Positions 2,674 to 15,254 of a stretch of 24,000 nt of DNA are shown here, in pieces. How positions within the stretch are numbered: position 1 is the first letter of the stretch; the number at the start of each line of letters is the position of its first letter. A model generated the notes under the pieces. It did no database searches. It saw only the letters and a program-made list of their open reading frames with translations, and had not been told where the DNA came from. This DNA is from an uncultured Nitrososphaerota archaeon. GTDB taxonomy: Archaea > Korarchaeota > Korarchaeia > Korarchaeales > Korarchaeaceae. Made by a program: the position numbers and the translations under genes. Where the stretch lies: the NCBI GenBank assembly GCA_964618805.1, contig CAZUBM010000010.1:38839-62838 (forward strand), in the 5' to 3' direction.

Positions 2674-2880
2674 ATGAGTCAATCTGATCAACCTATGCCA
2701 ACAATAAAGTGCAGATCTTGCGGTGCTAAGATCCTAATAGATGAAGATGATTATGAAGGAACCGTTGAGTGTCCTGATTGCGGTGCCTTGATGTATGTTA
2801 AGATTTCAGCTGGTAAAGTAAAGGAAGTAGAGCTAGAGGAAGAGAGCGAAGAAGAACTGGAAGGAGAGGAAGAATGGTGA
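2674..2880 (+). CDS. Small zinc-ribbon protein with acidic C-terminal tail ending EEEW (LysW-like amino-group-carrier architecture)
   Basis: CRSCG...ECPDCGA zinc ribbon followed by ...VELEEESEEELEGEEEW*. The paralog alignment suggests the real start may be the second Met at 2695 (MPTIKC...). Confidence 0.7.
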   Translation: MSQSDQPMPTIKCRSCGAKILIDEDDYEGTVECPDCGALMYVKISAGKVKEVELEEESEEELEGEEEW

Positions 2881-2921
2881 ACTCAAGTGTTTAATGATCA
2901 AGAAAACCTGTGGTGATCTCA

Positions 2922-3130
2922 ATGCCCACTGTAATGTGTCCAAGTTGCTTAGTTGAATTCGAGGTGAAAAGAAAGGACTACGAAGGGAAAGTTGATTGTC
3001 CTGCTTGCGGTGCTTCATTCACATAAAAATAGAGGAAGGAAAACTAAAACAAGCAAAGCTAGCAGTGAGCCTCAATGAAATACCGCTTTCTGAGGGGGAG
3101 CTGGAAGGTGAAGGAGAGGAAGAATGGTGA
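2922..3130 (+). pseudogene. Frameshifted paralog of the LysW-like zinc-ribbon protein
   Basis: ATG at 2922 is preceded by GGTGATC. MPTVMCPSCLVEFEVKRKDYEGKVDCPACGASFT stops at TAA 3024-3026. The -1 frame continues (H)IKIEEGKLKQAKLAVSLNEIPLSEGELEGEGEEEW* to 3130. Against copy 1 it looks like a 2-nt deletion near 3021-3026. Confidence 0.6.
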
Positions 3131-8734: not shown

Positions 8735-9976
8735 ATGAAATCGAGTTCGATATCCAAGTATAAATTCAGAAAGCTGCTGAAGATGCTCAAGGAAAAGCAG
8801 GGAAGAGGCACCGAACTAATCTCACTTTACATACCTCCAGGAAGGAATATTTTTGACGTAGGAAATTATTTGAGGCAAGAACAAGACCAAGCGGGTAACA
8901 TAAAGGATAAGCTAACTAGGAAGAATGTCCAATCTTCGATAGAAAAGCTCATTCAATACCTAAAGCTCTATAGAAAGACCCCTCCAAATGGCTTAGCATT
9001 GTTCTGCGGAGCAATTCCTCAAGGACCAGTAAGGGGAACGGAGAAGATAGAGATGTACGCGATAGAGCCTCCCGAGCCGGTGAGGTCTTTCATGTATGTC
9101 TGTGATCAAACATTCTATCTCGAGCCTTTAGAGGAGATGGCAAGGGAGAAGGATGTCTACGGTCTTCTAGTGCTGGATAGAGGGGGTGGAGCAATAGCTA
9201 TATTGAGAGGAGCAAACTACACTGTCGTTAACAGAGTTTCGTCAGACGTCCCTCCGAAGCATAGCGCTGGCGGATGGTCCCAGAGGAGGTTCGAAAGAAT
9301 AAGGGAGGAGAAAGTTCATGAGTTCTTCAAGAAGTTTGGAGAGGCTGCCAACAAAGCTTTATTGCCTTACATAAAGGAGCTAAAGGGAATAATCATAGGA
9401 GGTCCTGGAGACGCGAGGGAAATTTTTGAACAGGGAAATTACTTAGATTACCGTCTGAAATCAAAAGTTCTTGCCAATTTGCCTCTCTCTTATTCTGGAG
9501 AGGGTGGGCTCAGGGAATTAATTGAAAAATCGATGGATGTCCTGAAAGGCGCTGCCCTAGTAGAAGAGAAGGAAGCTGTTGATAAAATTCTCAGAACCTT
9601 GGCTAGAAATCCAAATCTAGTGGCATATGGGATAAGAGATGTGTTACAATCGTTGATGAGCGGAGCAGCAGAAATGGTAGTCGTTCTCAGCGACTTAGAA
9701 TACTTACATGTTAAGAGAACTTGTCAAAATTGTGGTTTTGAGGAGGAGAGGCTCATAAAGGTGGGAGAGACAGAAACACAAGAGAACTCCGTGCCCTGCC
9801 CTAAATGTGGATCTACGACGTTTGAAGTTGAGAAGGAGGATATAATTGATTACATCGTTACATTGGCAGAATCAATATCAGCAGAGGTCGTAGTCATATC
9901 AAGCGAGACGGAATGGGGTGAGCAGCTGAAGGCCCTTGGAGGGGTAGCCGCCTTACTCAGATATGAAGCTGGTTGA
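8735..9976 (+). CDS. prf1: Peptide chain release factor aRF1 homolog with non-canonical GGW in place of GGQ
   Basis: GRGTELISLYIPP, GNIKDK (NIKS position), YVCDQTF (YxCxxxF) and PKHSAGGWSQRRFERIREEK all align without gaps to the KHxxGGQSAxRFxRL core. A CxxC...CxxC zinc-ribbon insert lies in the C-domain (9722-9808). Confidence 0.85.
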   Translation: MKSSSISKYKFRKLLKMLKEKQGRGTELISLYIPPGRNIFDVGNYLRQEQDQAGNIKDKLTRKNVQSSIEKLIQYLKLYRKTPPNGLALFCGAIPQGPVRGTEKIEMYAIEPPEPVRSFMYVCDQTFYLEPLEEMAREKDVYGLLVLDRGGGAIAILRGANYTVVNRVSSDVPPKHSAGGWSQRRFERIREEKVHEFFKKFGEAANKALLPYIKELKGIIIGGPGDAREIFEQGNYLDYRLKSKVLANLPLSYSGEGGLRELIEKSMDVLKGAALVEEKEAVDKILRTLARNPNLVAYGIRDVLQSLMSGAAEMVVVLSDLEYLHVKRTCQNCGFEEERLIKVGETETQENSVPCPKCGSTTFEVEKEDIIDYIVTLAESISAEVVVISSETEWGEQLKALGGVAALLRYEAG

Positions 9977-10008: not shown

Positions 10009-10110
10009 GGGCCGGTAGCTCAGTGGTAGAGCGCCGCTCTCGCACTAAGAGCGACAAATCGTCGCTCTTGCGGATAGCGGAGGTCGCGGGTTCGAATCCC
10101 GCCCGGTCCA
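10009..10110 (+). tRNA. tRNA-Ala (anticodon CGC) with an intron of about 30 nt
   Basis: Acceptor GGGCCGG/CCGGTCC contains the G3:U70 Ala identity pair. D arm GCTC-AGTGGTA-GAGC, anticodon stem CCGCT/AGCGG, loop CT-CGC-A, T arm GCGGG-TTCGAAT-CCCGC, discriminator A. No CCA is encoded. Confidence 0.93.
10045..10074 (+). other. tRNA-Ala intron (near position 37/38, boundaries +/-1 nt)
   Basis: 30 nt separate anticodon-loop A37 from the 3' anticodon stem. The intron has an internal 9-bp hairpin (AAGAGCGAC/GTCGCTCTT), and its 3' GCGG pairs with anticodon-loop UCGC. Confidence 0.85.
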
Positions 10111-13798: not shown

Positions 13799-14818
13799 CT
13801 AAAACCAAGCTTCCAAACCCTCTGAAGGTGGTTTCATTTTTCTAAGTTCTTCTAAGGTTTTCTCCACCCTTTTAGGGGAAAATTCGTGTTGATTTACCAT
13901 GAAATCGTAAAGCTTCTCTTCATCAACTGGTTTAAGGGTTAAATCATAGTTATCTGAGGTAGGAGGATCCAAGAAGAACTCATAAATATCCTTTGGATCG
14001 ATTTCAAACTCCCAATTCACGTGTGAGAGGATTTCATCTAGCGTTTTATACGTTTCAACTAACTTTAAAGCCTTCTTACATCCTATCCCTTTAATCCCTC
14101 CTGGATTATAATCCGTCCCAACAAGTATGCCTATTACAATTAGTTGCTCCCTGCTGATACCTAAGTTGCCCAAAGTTTCATCTAGAAGGATCTCCTCTGG
14201 ATAGATTCTGACATATGCCTTCTCTCTCGGTAATTTTCTTCTCTCAGAGAATGTCAGATTCCTTACAAGCCTTGGTGAGCCAAATAAGAGGGAGTCATAA
14301 TCTTGAGATCCTGCTGCCCATACATCGCCTTTCTTAGCCATATAGGCTGCTTGTGCCTCTCCTTCACTTGGTGCTTGGACGATGGGTACTCCCATATATT
14401 CAAGAATCTTCTTGGCGTCCTCTATCATCTCTGGAGTTAAGGAAAGAGCTGCTTGTGCGTACTTTCTTGCTTCTTCTAATCTCCCAGCAGCCAGTGCTTC
14501 CTTCCACTTTTTCATAGCTTCTCTCCTTACCTCCTCCCTCTCTTCTACAGTCGCCCTCTTGAAAGGAGGGGGCTCCCCGTCAAACACGTATATAGGTGTT
14601 ATACCTGTTGTGAGAAGCTTAGCGGTCCTGTAAAAGATGCCGGAATGGACTGAAGTTATCTCCCCGCTGCTCGTCATTAATGGCGTTCCATCCTTCTGTC
14701 TTATGATAGATAAGAACTGATACATGGCATTAAAGGCATCGATAGCCACGGATTTTCCTTTAAGCTTTTCTAAATCTATCCTATGGGTTATAACAAGGTC
14801 ACTTATCTTAACTCCCAT
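13799..14818 (-). CDS. fen: Flap endonuclease 1
   Basis: The canonical N-terminus MGVKISDLV...AIDAFNAMYQFL starts at the internal ATG at 14818. The 46-codon upstream extension in the track is non-homologous. XPG-N/I motifs and a C-terminal PIP-like tail (LEAWF). Confidence 0.9.
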   Translation of the reverse strand: MGVKISDLVITHRIDLEKLKGKSVAIDAFNAMYQFLSIIRQKDGTPLMTSSGEITSVHSGIFYRTAKLLTTGITPIYVFDGEPPPFKRATVEEREEVRREAMKKWKEALAAGRLEEARKYAQAALSLTPEMIEDAKKILEYMGVPIVQAPSEGEAQAAYMAKKGDVWAAGSQDYDSLLFGSPRLVRNLTFSERRKLPREKAYVRIYPEEILLDETLGNLGISREQLIVIGILVGTDYNPGGIKGIGCKKALKLVETYKTLDEILSHVNWEFEIDPKDIYEFFLDPPTSDNYDLTLKPVDEEKLYDFMVNQHEFSPKRVEKTLEELRKMKPPSEGLEAWF

Positions 14819-14873
14819 CGGCCTTCGTATTATCTTACTTTGGTCCAAGGATAAAAACAAATCTGGAGGGATA

Positions 14874-15254
14874 ATGTCAATGAAATCTATGAGATTAAGC
14901 TCTAGATACAAGCAAGTTATTGTTGTTAGAGGCGATATAGAAATGAGTAGAGGCAAGATTGCTGCTCAAGTAGCTCATGCAGCGTGTGAAGCTTTTGAAA
15001 ATGCCAGAAAGATGGTCCCACGCATTTGGAGTAGTTGGAGAGAGGAGGGAGGGAAGAAGGTGGTATTGGTGGCAAGTGAAAAGGAGCTTCTAGAAATCTA
15101 TAAAAAAGCAGAAATCCTAAATATTCCAAGAGCATTAATTAGGGATGCTGGTTTGACGGAGTTGCCCCCTGGAACTCTTACTGCAGTTGCGATAGGTCCT
15201 TTTGATGGGGAAAAGATAGATAAAATCACAGGGCATTTGAAACCCTTGAAATAA
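14874..15254 (+). CDS. pth2: Peptidyl-tRNA hydrolase, archaeal type (Pth2)
   Basis: KQVIVVRGDIEMSRGKIAAQVAHAA...KVVL...LTAVAIGP. The start is trimmed to ATG 14874 (GGAGGG upstream), because the longer track ORF overlaps the fen 5' end. Confidence 0.88.
   Translation: MSMKSMRLSSRYKQVIVVRGDIEMSRGKIAAQVAHAACEAFENARKMVPRIWSSWREEGGKKVVLVASEKELLEIYKKAEILNIPRALIRDAGLTELPPGTLTAVAIGPFDGEKIDKITGHLKPLK

What the first reader, a model, noticed from the sequence alone, without database searches (positions are those of the whole stretch)
9269..9283. aRF1 homolog with the universal catalytic GGQ replaced by GGW
PKHSAGGWSQRRFERIREEKVHEFF aligns without gaps to the aRF1/eRF1 core ...KH..GGQSA.RF.RL..E. The glutamine needed for peptidyl-tRNA hydrolysis is Trp here (codon TGG at 9275-9277), and a Gln sits two residues later (GGWSQ). 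Going from CAR to TGG needs at least two substitutions, so this is not a trivial base error.

The N-domain decoding motifs are also shifted: GTS becomes GTE, NIKS becomes NIKD (8897-8908), and YxCxxxF is retained. The rest of the protein is intact, and the gene sits in a conserved translation-gene neighbourhood.

I see three possibilities. It may be a catalytically unusual release factor. It may be a non-hydrolysing paralog, such as a rescue or stalling factor, with a canonical copy elsewhere. Or it may be a lineage-specific variant of the motif.
Basis: partly seen in the sequence, partly recalled or inferred. Interest (0 to 1): 0.7.

Follow-up and report, generated by a model that had tools for sequence, protein, structure and literature searches.

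The report
Archaeal release factor with GGW motif
The protein that ends translation in this hot-spring/vent archaeon carries tryptophan where every textbook release factor has its "universal" catalytic glutamine, and the same swap has arisen repeatedly in other archaea, nearly always with a spare glutamine two residues later.

Summary
ORF 8735-9976 (+) is a full-length aRF1 (TIGR03676, 482.6 bits against a cut-off of 234.7). Codons 9269-9277 read Gly-Gly-Trp exactly where aRF1 and eRF1 structures have GGQ.

It is not a sequencing error and probably not a spare paralog.
- All eight members of one Korarchaeota sub-clade (67-93% identity) have GGWSQ. Every sister Korarchaeote has GGQSQ.
- The gene is under strong purifying selection (dN/dS about 0.025).
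- In the deepest GGW lineage it sits at the ancestral aRF1 locus.
- It keeps the stop-codon reading motifs.

The swap is recurrent. Among 150 diverse aRF1 cluster representatives, 19 have W, M or F at this position, from about ten origins. Q sits two residues later in 18 of these 19, against 25 of 124 GGQ forms.

Best reading: this is a working release factor with an alternative loop, GG[W/F/M]-S-Q. That loop matches the GGxSQ motif of Vms1-like release factors.

Two things remain untested: whether the genome holds a second aRF1, and whether this protein actually releases peptides. I found no report of the variant in the searchable literature.

The parts
8735..9976 (+). aRF1 gene (413 aa) with N, M and C domains; TGA stop
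   Evidence: Pfam eRF1_1/2/3. TIGR03676 482.6 bits against a cut-off of 234.7. PDB 4af1 E=4.8e-78. AF2 model pLDDT 88; best Foldseek hits are aRF1/eRF1.
9269..9277 (+). GGW tripeptide (G179 G180 W181) in place of GGQ
   Evidence: Conserved in P0001-P0007, L001, L002, L004, L108 and L114.
9275..9277 (+). TGG codon for Trp181, the substituted catalytic position
   Evidence: TGG in all six clade DNA sequences despite saturated synonymous divergence. Sisters use CAG or CAA.
9278..9283 (+). Ser182-Gln183; Gln183 is the candidate displaced catalytic Gln (GGxSQ)
   Evidence: The +2 residue is Q in 18 of 19 W/M/F representatives against 25 of 124 GGQ representatives. GGxSQ is the motif of aVLRF1 and acVLRF1 (PMC6514570).
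9284..9292 (+). Arg184-Arg185-Phe186 at the start of the post-loop helix. Position 186 is Tyr in most non-Q aRF1s and in P0007.
   Evidence: Tyr at 186 in 16 of 19 against 25 of 124. The helix starts at residue 183 in the AF2 model.
8807..8815 (+). GTE, the archaeal form of the GTS decoding loop
   Evidence: GRGTEL in nearly all archaeal hits.
8879..8908 (+). E49-Q50...N55-I56-K57-D58, the NIKS-type decoding loop. Y50->Q is specific to the GGW clade.
9095..9115 (+). YVCDQTF (the YxCxxxF decoding motif)
9722..9808 (+). CxxC...CxxC zinc-ribbon insert in the C domain, shared with GGQ Korarchaeota and many other aRF1s
   Evidence: Weak L37e-type zinc-ribbon hits.

Best explanation
This is the organism's orthologous class-I release factor, and most likely its only one. 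It carries a lineage-fixed alternative catalytic loop, GGW-S-Q, instead of GGQ.

Proposed mechanism. The N domain still reads all three stop codons. The M-domain loop still enters the peptidyl-transferase centre: the two glycines, the RRF helix and the loop length are unchanged. Peptidyl-tRNA hydrolysis still happens. The bulky Trp fills the pocket normally taken by N5-methyl-glutamine, or stacks on a PTC nucleotide. The polar role of the glutamine side chain is taken over by Gln183 two residues downstream, as in the GGxSQ loop of Vms1-like release factors. The backbone NH of residue 181 may also carry the chemistry.

Shown: identity, conservation, orthology, purifying selection, recurrence and the W/M/F-to-+2-Gln association.
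Inferred: that the protein releases peptides, and which group does the chemistry.
For: - Bona fide aRF1: TIGR03676 482.6 bits against 234.7; full-length matches to solved aRF1/eRF1; AF2 model matches aRF1/eRF1.
- Clade-wide: GGWSQ in the window plus P0001-P0007 (67-93% identity). All 38 other Korarchaeal aRF1s have GGQSQ. The GGW group is a monophyletic sister without a long branch.
- Purifying selection: dN/dS 0.024-0.028 at dS about 1.5, and TGG is kept while flanking codons drift.
- aRF1 is among the best-conserved genes between the window and L004: 66.7%, against 44-67% for nine neighbouring genes.
- Positional orthology: the arrangement of a GlmU-like NTP_transf_4 gene divergent from aRF1 is shared by GGQ lineages L006 and L121 and by GGW lineage L004. 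L004 also shares the HisRS...S15 block with the window.
- Decoding motifs are intact, and TAA, TGA and TAG are all used as stops (10, 7 and 5 genes).
- Recurrence: Altiarchaeales WOR_SM1_86-2 has GGWSQ in four assemblies, while its 119 nearest relatives have GGQ.
- Among 150 representatives, 19 have W, M or F at this position, from about 10 origins, with NIKS and YxCxxxF kept.
- The +2 residue is Gln in 18 of 19 against 25 of 124 (Fisher 3e-10, not corrected for phylogeny). Tyr186 occurs in 16 of 19 against 25 of 124.
- Precedent: GGxSQ in aVLRF1 and acVLRF1 (PMC6514570). Vms1 has GGSQ and loses function when it is converted to GGQ (PMC5989216).
- The Gln backbone amide is credited with catalysis in bacterial RFs (PMC6742477). 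Human eRF1 Gln substitutions 'do not entirely abolish' activity, going by the Seit-Nebi 2000 title in the reference list of PMC12440015.
Against: - No biochemical evidence exists for release activity.
'Sole copy' therefore rests on synteny and base rates.
- Loop length is unchanged relative to GGQ sisters, so Gln183 would need a register shift to reach the canonical Gln site. In the AF2 model residue 183 already starts the helix.
- Gln183 is ancestral: GGQSQ is found in all Korarchaeota. It is a permissive background rather than a new compensatory change.
- Counter-examples exist: GGWSA (P0366, nested inside a GGW clade) and GGMSA (P0074, a singleton).
- W at the same spot also occurs in Balon-type hibernation factors that do not hydrolyse. 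Rv2629 reads AGW there, though the alignment is of low similarity.
- The GGQ Gln is essential in vivo in yeast and E. coli (my own knowledge; Q182E was not propagable in PMC12440015).
- The Fisher tests are not corrected for phylogeny.
Confidence: 0.62

Rival explanations
1. A non-hydrolysing aRF1 paralog, for example a stop-codon-specific stalling, rescue or hibernation factor, with a canonical GGQ aRF1 encoded elsewhere in the genome.
For: The catalytic Gln is missing. W at the equivalent loop position is seen in Balon/Rv2629-type hibernation factors and in baeRF families 2 and 10. Balon binds the A site without hydrolysis (PMC10901736). The genomes are MAGs and could not be searched whole.
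Against: The GGW gene sits at the ancestral aRF1 locus. There is no rate acceleration. GG, RRF, NIK, YxCxxxF and the C-terminal GG..LLRY are all retained under dN/dS of about 0.025. No paralog-like second Korarchaeal clade mirrors the GGW clade in the tree. The deep GGQ branch P0045 is itself a positional ortholog in another lineage. Scores against the pelota and Rv2629 models are far below their cut-offs.
Confidence: 0.14
2. The sole aRF1 recognises stop codons but no longer triggers hydrolysis itself. Release is completed by another hydrolase, such as Pth2 or an aVLRF1-type factor, after ABCE1-driven splitting. This would be two-step termination.
For: The canonical Gln is lost. Pth2 is encoded about 5 kb away (window about 14904-15254), in a block conserved with L004. 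VLRF1-type factors act on 50S/60S-bound peptidyl-tRNA (PMC6514570; PMC5989216).
Against: Pth2 is present in the GGQ relative examined too (L120) and is near-universal in archaea (my own knowledge), so its presence says nothing specific. The tight W/M/F-to-+2-Gln and Tyr186 coupling and the retained GG and loop length point to a loop still working inside the PTC. Routing every termination event through a rescue-like pathway would be costly.
Confidence: 0.08
3. The change at residue 181 is driven by intein biology. It lies at the -1 position of a widespread intein insertion site (GGx|intein|S). Selection for splicing, or against homing-endonuclease cleavage, pushed Q to W/M/F, and catalysis merely tolerates it.
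For: Dozens of aRF1 representatives carry an intein inserted exactly between residue 181 and Ser182. P0384 has Intein_splicing and LAGLIDADG domains inside eRF1_2. Eleven of the 12 members of the large non-Q clade contain inteins.
Against: The Korarchaeal and Altiarchaeal GGW genes and their GGQ sisters have no intein. Most intein-bearing aRF1s keep Q at -1. A synonymous change would evade a homing enzyme more cheaply. The idea explains origin, not function, so it is compatible with the main explanation.
Confidence: 0.08
4. Sequencing or assembly error, or a pseudogene.
For: None beyond the rarity of the motif.
Against: The same TGG appears in at least 8 independent assemblies across saturated synonymous divergence. 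The ORF is intact with a low dN/dS.
Confidence: 0.01

Closest known systems
Canonical archaeal/eukaryotic class-I release factor aRF1/eRF1 (TIGR03676; PDB 4af1, 3agk, 1dt9)
   Same: Three-domain architecture, GT[SE], NIK[SD] and YxCxxxF decoding motifs, the Gly-Gly pair, the RRF helix, the C-terminal GG..LLRY, a zinc-ribbon insert, and the genomic locus of the Korarchaeal ortholog.
   Different: The 'universally conserved' Gln of GGQ (PMC2613156; PMC6144793) is Trp, so the Mtq2 methylation target is absent. Y50->Q next to the decoding Glu is also specific to this clade.
Vms1-like release factors (eukaryotic Vms1/ANKZF1 GGSQ or GxxQ; aVLRF1 and acVLRF1 GGxSQ; Pfam PF18859)
   Same: The loop sequence GG-x-S-Q-R-R-F/Y-E-R is identical in pattern. 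Marine and soil acVLRF1-like proteins read AGGSSQRRFER. The functional Gln lies downstream of the GG pair.
   Different: VLRF1 proteins lack the stop-codon-reading N domain and act on split large subunits. Here x is Trp, not Ser or Thr. The NCBIfam acVLRF1 score is 52 against a cut-off of 125.
Balon / Rv2629 / MSMEG_1130 ribosome hibernation factors and baeRF families 2 and 10
   Same: Same aeRF1 fold. Some members carry GGWSQ (L091, L109), and Rv2629 has AGW at the aligned position.
   Different: They lack NIKS and YxCxxxF, are bacterial, bind with EF-Tu and keep the PTC inert. The score here is 25 against a cut-off of 320.
Pelota/Dom34
   Same: Paralogous A-site factor with the same three-domain plan and no catalytic Gln.
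   Different: Pelota lacks the whole GGQ loop and the decoding motifs. The score here is 79.6 against a cut-off of 177.65.
Laboratory GGQ glutamine mutants of RF1, RF2 and eRF1
   Same: Replacement of the Gln side chain while the Gly-Gly pair and backbone are kept. Partial activity in vitro is reported.
   Different: Those are engineered and generally not viable as the sole copy. This one is natural, fixed for a long time and recurrent.

Membership tests
aRF1/eRF1 (class-I release factor, TIGR03676) | Whole-protein match above the curated equivalog cut-off | tested here: met
   482.6 bits against 234.7, covering residues 8-411.
aRF1/eRF1 (class-I release factor, TIGR03676) | Three domains (eRF1_1, eRF1_2, eRF1_3) and the aRF1/eRF1 fold | tested here: met
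   All three Pfam domains match. The AF2 model (pLDDT 88) hits 4af1 at E=1.4e-40 and has TM 0.79 to eRF1 in 5lzt.
aRF1/eRF1 (class-I release factor, TIGR03676) | Stop-codon decoding motifs GT[SE], NIK[SD] and YxCxxxF | tested here: met
   GTE at 8807-8815, NIKD at 8897-8908, YVCDQTF at 9095-9115. These are identical in form to GGQ Korarchaeota.
aRF1/eRF1 (class-I release factor, TIGR03676) | [quoted passage not shown] | tested here: not met
   GGW at residues 179-181. By descent the protein is the aRF1 ortholog, but this functional hallmark fails, so equivalence of activity is unproven.
aRF1/eRF1 (class-I release factor, TIGR03676) | Orthologous genomic position relative to canonical aRF1 of related genomes | tested here: met
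   The divergent NTP_transf_4 and aRF1 pair is found in L004 (GGW), L006 and L121 (GGQ). The window's own upstream neighbour is different (a radical-SAM gene).
aRF1/eRF1 (class-I release factor, TIGR03676) | Stop-codon-dependent peptidyl-tRNA hydrolysis with aEF1alpha-GTP | not testable with these tools
   Needs a biochemical assay.
aRF1/eRF1 (class-I release factor, TIGR03676) | N5-methylation of the motif Gln by Mtq2 | tested here: inconclusive
   The target Gln is absent. Mtq2 (TIGR00537, 141 bits) lies near aRF1 in GGQ Korarchaeota. No Mtq2 could be assigned to a GGW genome, and P0260/L118 remains unclassified.
Vms1-like release factors (aVLRF1/acVLRF1, GGxSQ) | GGxSQ catalytic loop | tested here: met
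   GGWSQ at 9269-9283. The motif definition is from PMC6514570.
Vms1-like release factors (aVLRF1/acVLRF1, GGxSQ) | Family-level sequence match and absence of a stop-codon-reading N domain | tested here: not met
   NF041024 scores 52.1 against a cut-off of 125. A full eRF1_1 domain is present.
Balon/Rv2629 ribosome hibernation factors | Family-level match; HP motif in place of NIKS; no catalytic loop | tested here: not met
   NF052289 scores 25.2 against a cut-off of 320. The NIK motif is retained.
Pelota/Dom34 | Family-level match; truncated M-domain tip | tested here: not met
   TIGR00111 scores 79.6 against a cut-off of 177.65. The full-length loop is present.

The most novel reading that the evidence does not exclude
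The 'universal' GGQ is not universal. Archaea have evolved a second working catalytic loop for peptide release, GG[W/F/M]-S-Q-x-R-[Y/F], about ten separate times. In this loop an aromatic or hydrophobic residue occupies the old glutamine pocket and the catalytic or water-selecting glutamine sits two residues downstream, as in Vms1-like factors. These lineages would terminate all translation with that loop. They may have lost or retargeted Mtq2 methylation.
Probability: 0.5. Interest if true: 0.88.

Novelty: new variant of a known kind. Interest (0 to 1): 0.8.

Why it matters
GGQ is the textbook example of a motif conserved across all class-I release factors, and it arose by convergence in bacteria and in archaea/eukaryotes. 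What its glutamine side chain does is a long-running question: catalysis, exclusion of nucleophiles other than water, or serving as a methylation target.

Lineages that have lived for a long time with Trp, Phe or Met at that position give ready-made test cases. They come with a coupled downstream Gln and a Tyr186 change. The proteins can be expressed, reverted (W181Q, Q183A) and imaged on ribosomes.

There are practical consequences too.
- Annotation rules and motif-based screens that require GGQ will misjudge these factors.
- A sequence link appears between canonical aRF1 and the GGxSQ loop of Vms1-like rescue factors.
- The finding raises the question of what Mtq2 does in these organisms.

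Tried and rejected
- Second aRF1 copy. The single genome-contig scan went on locating the clade, so whole MAGs could not be searched. Accession-block matching through the listing of cluster members returned no accessions.
- Mtq2 loss as an indirect test. The Korarchaeal Mtq2 search and three context look-ups placed L119 and L120 in the GGQ clade. L118 stayed unclassifiable by gene content or GC. Result: inconclusive.
- Genetic-code artefact (TGG read as Gln). Rejected, because W394 aligns with Trp in all relatives.
- Stop-codon reassignment. Rejected for the window, because all three stops terminate genes.
- 'Shifted' decoding motifs. Rejected, because NIKD and GTE are the clade norm.
- GGR as an evolutionary intermediate. 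All GGR matches in the metagenome scan were non-coding or unrelated ORFs.
- Viral GGW aRF1-like genes in IMG/VR. The one hit was spurious.
- Literature. No paper pairs 'GGW' with 'release factor'. The searches on Korarchaeota, DPANN and aRF1 inteins turned up no report of it. The key older papers (Seit-Nebi 2001; Shaw & Green 2007) are not held.
- The +2-Gln evidence from the metagenome scan is circular, because the pattern required Ser-Gln. Only the unbiased representative set is used for that argument.
Full report
**Observation**

The window encodes a 413-aa protein at 8735-9976 (+). The DNA at 9269-9283 reads GGC GGA TGG TCC CAG, which is G179-G180-W181-S182-Q183. The protein matches all three eRF1 Pfam domains. 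It scores 482.6 bits on the NCBIfam aRF1 equivalog TIGR03676, whose cut-off is 234.7. The pelota, acVLRF1 and Rv2629 models all score far below their cut-offs. Full-length HMMER alignments to solved aRF1/eRF1 chains put W181 on the Gln of GGQ, with no gap in the motif and its flanks. An AlphaFold2 model (mean pLDDT 88) finds aRF1 4af1 (E=1.4e-40) and ribosome-bound eRF1 structures as its best matches. In that model GGW lies in the loop just before the long helix that starts at residue 183.

**Not an error, and fixed in a lineage**

A search of 5.8 billion proteins returned seven clusters at 93-67% identity. All read PK[HV]SAGGWSQRR[FY]ER. The next 38 hits are Korarchaeota at 65% identity or less, and all read PKHSAGGQSQRRFER.

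In a neighbour-joining tree the GGW sequences form one clade. It is sister to the main GGQ Korarchaeal clade and has no long branch. A deeper GGQ lineage (P0045) lies outside both.

Members come from independent assemblies: MAGs CAYZRF01, JAVCBX01 'Kor4' and QMVZ01 'B15_G15' from Guaymas, plus ENA, Logan and JGI metagenomes.

At the DNA level, the window against L001, L108 and L114 gives dN/dS of 0.024-0.028 at dS of about 1.5. Deeper pairs are saturated at synonymous sites. TGG is kept in all six sequences while the flanking Gly, Ser and Arg codons vary. Sister clades use CAG or CAA. The ORF's only other TGG codon (W394) aligns with Trp in all 38 relatives. TAA, TGA and TAG terminate 10, 7 and 5 window genes, so the genetic code is standard.

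**Ortholog or paralog**

In GGQ Korarchaeota, aRF1 lies divergent from a GlmU-like NTP_transf_4 gene and is followed by PIN_9, S1 and S24e. This holds for L006 (GCA_026986575.1) and for L121 (the P0045 lineage).

The deepest GGW lineage (L004, P0007) keeps the NTP_transf_4 and aRF1 pair. It also shares the block HisRS, DUF7343, aS21, EF1-beta, FEN1, Pth2, DUF371, PCMT, RIO, Ham1, S15 and DHH with the window. The GGW gene therefore occupies the ancestral aRF1 locus.

Between the window and L004, aRF1 is 66.7% identical. Nine neighbouring genes range from 44% to 67%. That is no sign of relaxed or accelerated evolution. Clade-specific replacements at otherwise fixed columns are few and mostly conservative. 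The exceptions are Q181W and Y50Q, the residue after the decoding Glu.

Absence of a canonical copy is therefore inferred, not shown.

GRGTEL is the form in most of the archaeal aRF1s retrieved. NIKD occurs in all GGQ Korarchaeota and in several other Thermoproteota groups.

**Recurrence**

A metagenome scan for AGG-x-SQRR[FY]ER, with x limited to codons lacking A at the second position, found three kinds of genuine hit:
- the Korarchaeal genes;
- more than 80 acVLRF1-like proteins reading AGG[S/T]SQRRFER;
- further GGWSQ proteins.

One of the GGWSQ proteins is the aRF1 of Altiarchaeales WOR_SM1_86-2. It scores 413 bits on TIGR03676 and is present, identical or with 3 nucleotide differences, in four assemblies. 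Its 119 nearest relatives all have GGQ. Two others are bacterial baeRF family 10 and family 2 (Rv2629-like) proteins. M. tuberculosis Rv2629, a Balon-type hibernation factor, aligns AGW with GGW, though the alignment is of low similarity.

The decisive, unbiased sample was an exhaustive phmmer search of 1.84 billion cluster representatives at the 50% identity level. The best 150 are diverse archaeal aRF1s. Counts at the GGQ position were:

| Residue at position 181 | Representatives |
|---|---|
| Gln | 124 |
| Trp | 12 |
| Met | 4 |
| Phe | 3 |
| Other or unparsed | about 6 |

The last group includes two GGE proteins that have also lost NIKS and YxCxxxF, and so look like true divergent paralogs. 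The W/M/F proteins keep NIKS, YxCxxxF and GTx.

In a neighbour-joining tree, 12 of the W/M/F proteins form one large clade. The remaining ones placed in the tree are scattered, and P0465 was too short to be placed. Together with the Korarchaeal and Altiarchaeal cases and P0074 (GGM), that makes about ten origins.

Two other positions are coupled to the swap. The tests are not corrected for phylogeny.

| Feature | W/M/F representatives | GGQ representatives | Fisher p |
|---|---|---|---|
| Gln at +2 | 18 of 19 | 25 of 124 | 3e-10 |
| Tyr at position 186 | 16 of 19 | 25 of 124 | 9e-8 |

By origins, roughly nine of ten have Gln at +2. The exceptions are P0074 (GGMSA, an unverified singleton) and P0366 (GGWSA, nested inside a GGW clade).

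**Mechanism**

The retained Gly-Gly pair, loop length, RRF/RRY helix, decoding motifs and C-terminal GG..LLRY, all under strong constraint, point to a factor that still reads stop codons and still places its loop in the peptidyl-transferase centre.

Burroughs and Aravind describe GGxSQ as the catalytic motif of aVLRF1 and acVLRF1. They note a conserved Gln in baeRF family 10 (PMC6514570). Yeast Vms1 has GGSQ, and converting it to GGQ abolishes function (PMC5989216).

For bacterial RFs, the backbone amide of the GGQ Gln is credited with catalysis (PMC6742477). [quoted passage not shown] I could not read its text.

I therefore favour a working release factor. In it, W181 (or F or M) packs where N5-methyl-Gln normally packs, or stacks on a PTC base. 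Gln183, the residue-181 backbone NH, or both, support hydrolysis.

Several points count against this:
- Gln183 is ancestral in Korarchaeota, so it is permissive rather than compensatory.
- The loop is not lengthened, and residue 183 begins the helix in the model.
- Non-hydrolysing Balon-type proteins also carry W at this spot (PMC10901736).
- GGQ mutants are not viable as sole copies in model organisms (my own knowledge; Q182E was not propagable in PMC12440015).

**Mtq2**

Haloferax Mtq2 methylates the GGQ Gln of aRF1, and Mtq2 is said to occur in all archaea (PMC6144793). GGQ Korarchaeota encode an Mtq2 (TIGR00537, 141 bits) next to KsgA. In L006 it lies about 4 kb from aRF1, and in eight lineages it shares a contig with aRF1, judged by contig-length matches. 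No Mtq2 hit shares a contig with a GGW aRF1. Gene order differs in the GGW clade, however, and the one divergent candidate (P0260/L118) could not be assigned. This test is inconclusive.

**Comparison and novelty**

By descent this is a member of the aRF1 orthologous group. It fails the family's best-known functional hallmark, GGQ, and matches the loop pattern of the Vms1-like families without belonging to them.

GGQ is called 'universally conserved' in aRF1/eRF1 (PMC2613156; PMC6144793). Full-text searches found no paper pairing GGW with release factors, and no mention in recent Korarchaeota genomics papers. I rate it a new variant of a known kind, of high interest.

The main uncertainties are the untested activity and the unverified absence of a second copy.

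Noticed in passing
P0369-P0508 (many representatives); L128 6001-8739: Dozens of archaeal aRF1 genes carry one to three inteins. The commonest insertion site is exactly between the GGQ-position residue and the following Ser (GGx|Cys...intein...|Ser). P0384 has Intein_splicing and LAGLIDADG domains there and sits on a 464-kb contig next to the L3/S11/S4/S13 genes. Eleven of the 12 members of the big non-Q clade contain inteins.
   Followed up: partly
L107 1-5571; also L012, L054, L113: A contig with a terminase large subunit and a Mu-like portal (a tailed virus, from JGI metagenome contigs of unrecorded habitat) also encodes a mini aRF1-like protein. It has N and M domains only, with NIKA, YYCGRDF and GGWSQ, and an in-frame TGA between the two parts. 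The identical protein occurs on four contigs.
   Followed up: partly
window 10009-10110 (+): An intron-containing tRNA lies 33 nt downstream of the aRF1 stop. Rfam found it (64 bits) but ARAGORN missed it. The anticodon is CGC with G3:U70, so it is tRNA-Ala, with a 33-nt intron after position 37.
   Followed up: yes
L008-L117 (more than 80 loci): The metagenome scan pulled out a large, well-conserved family reading ...KNRHRAGGSSQRRFERSRERL..., which looks like acVLRF1 with a GGxSQ loop. Its loop and helix start are nearly identical to those of aRF1.
   Followed up: no
L091 and L109; PDB 8v9k: Bacterial baeRF family 10 and family 2 (Rv2629-like) proteins carry GGWSQ. M. tuberculosis Rv2629 (a Balon homolog) has AGW at the aligned position. 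Trp at this loop position therefore recurs across the superfamily.
   Followed up: partly
window 8882-8884 (Q50): The GGW Korarchaeota also changed the residue after the decoding Glu from Tyr to Gln (EQDQAGNIKD against EYDQA[SG]NIKD). Altiarchaeota, both GGW and GGQ forms, have EQ at the same place.
   Followed up: no
L006 14872-16190 (-); L119, L120, L118: In GGQ Korarchaeota, Mtq2 (the HemK2 family RF-glutamine methyltransferase) overlaps KsgA and lies a few kb from aRF1. In L120 the pair abuts the Pth2-FEN1 block, whereas in the GGW clade that block is flanked by DUF371 instead.
   Followed up: partly
P0074; P0425, P0470: P0074 is a singleton aRF1 reading GGMSA, with no close relative in hand. 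P0425 and P0470 are aRF1-like proteins reading GGE that have also lost NIKS and YxCxxxF, and so are probably true non-decoding paralogs.
   Followed up: no
window 2674-2880 and 2910-3130 (+): Two adjacent small ORFs (68 aa, and about 38 plus 44 aa) each have CxxC...CxxC followed by an acidic tail ending EEEW. They lie in an otherwise ORF-poor 1.1-kb gap.
   Followed up: no
window 14724-15254 (+) against 13799-14956 (-): The mechanical Pth2 ORF overlaps the FEN1 gene by about 230 nt. The Pth2 homology starts at residue 61, so the true start is probably near 14874-14943.
   Followed up: partly
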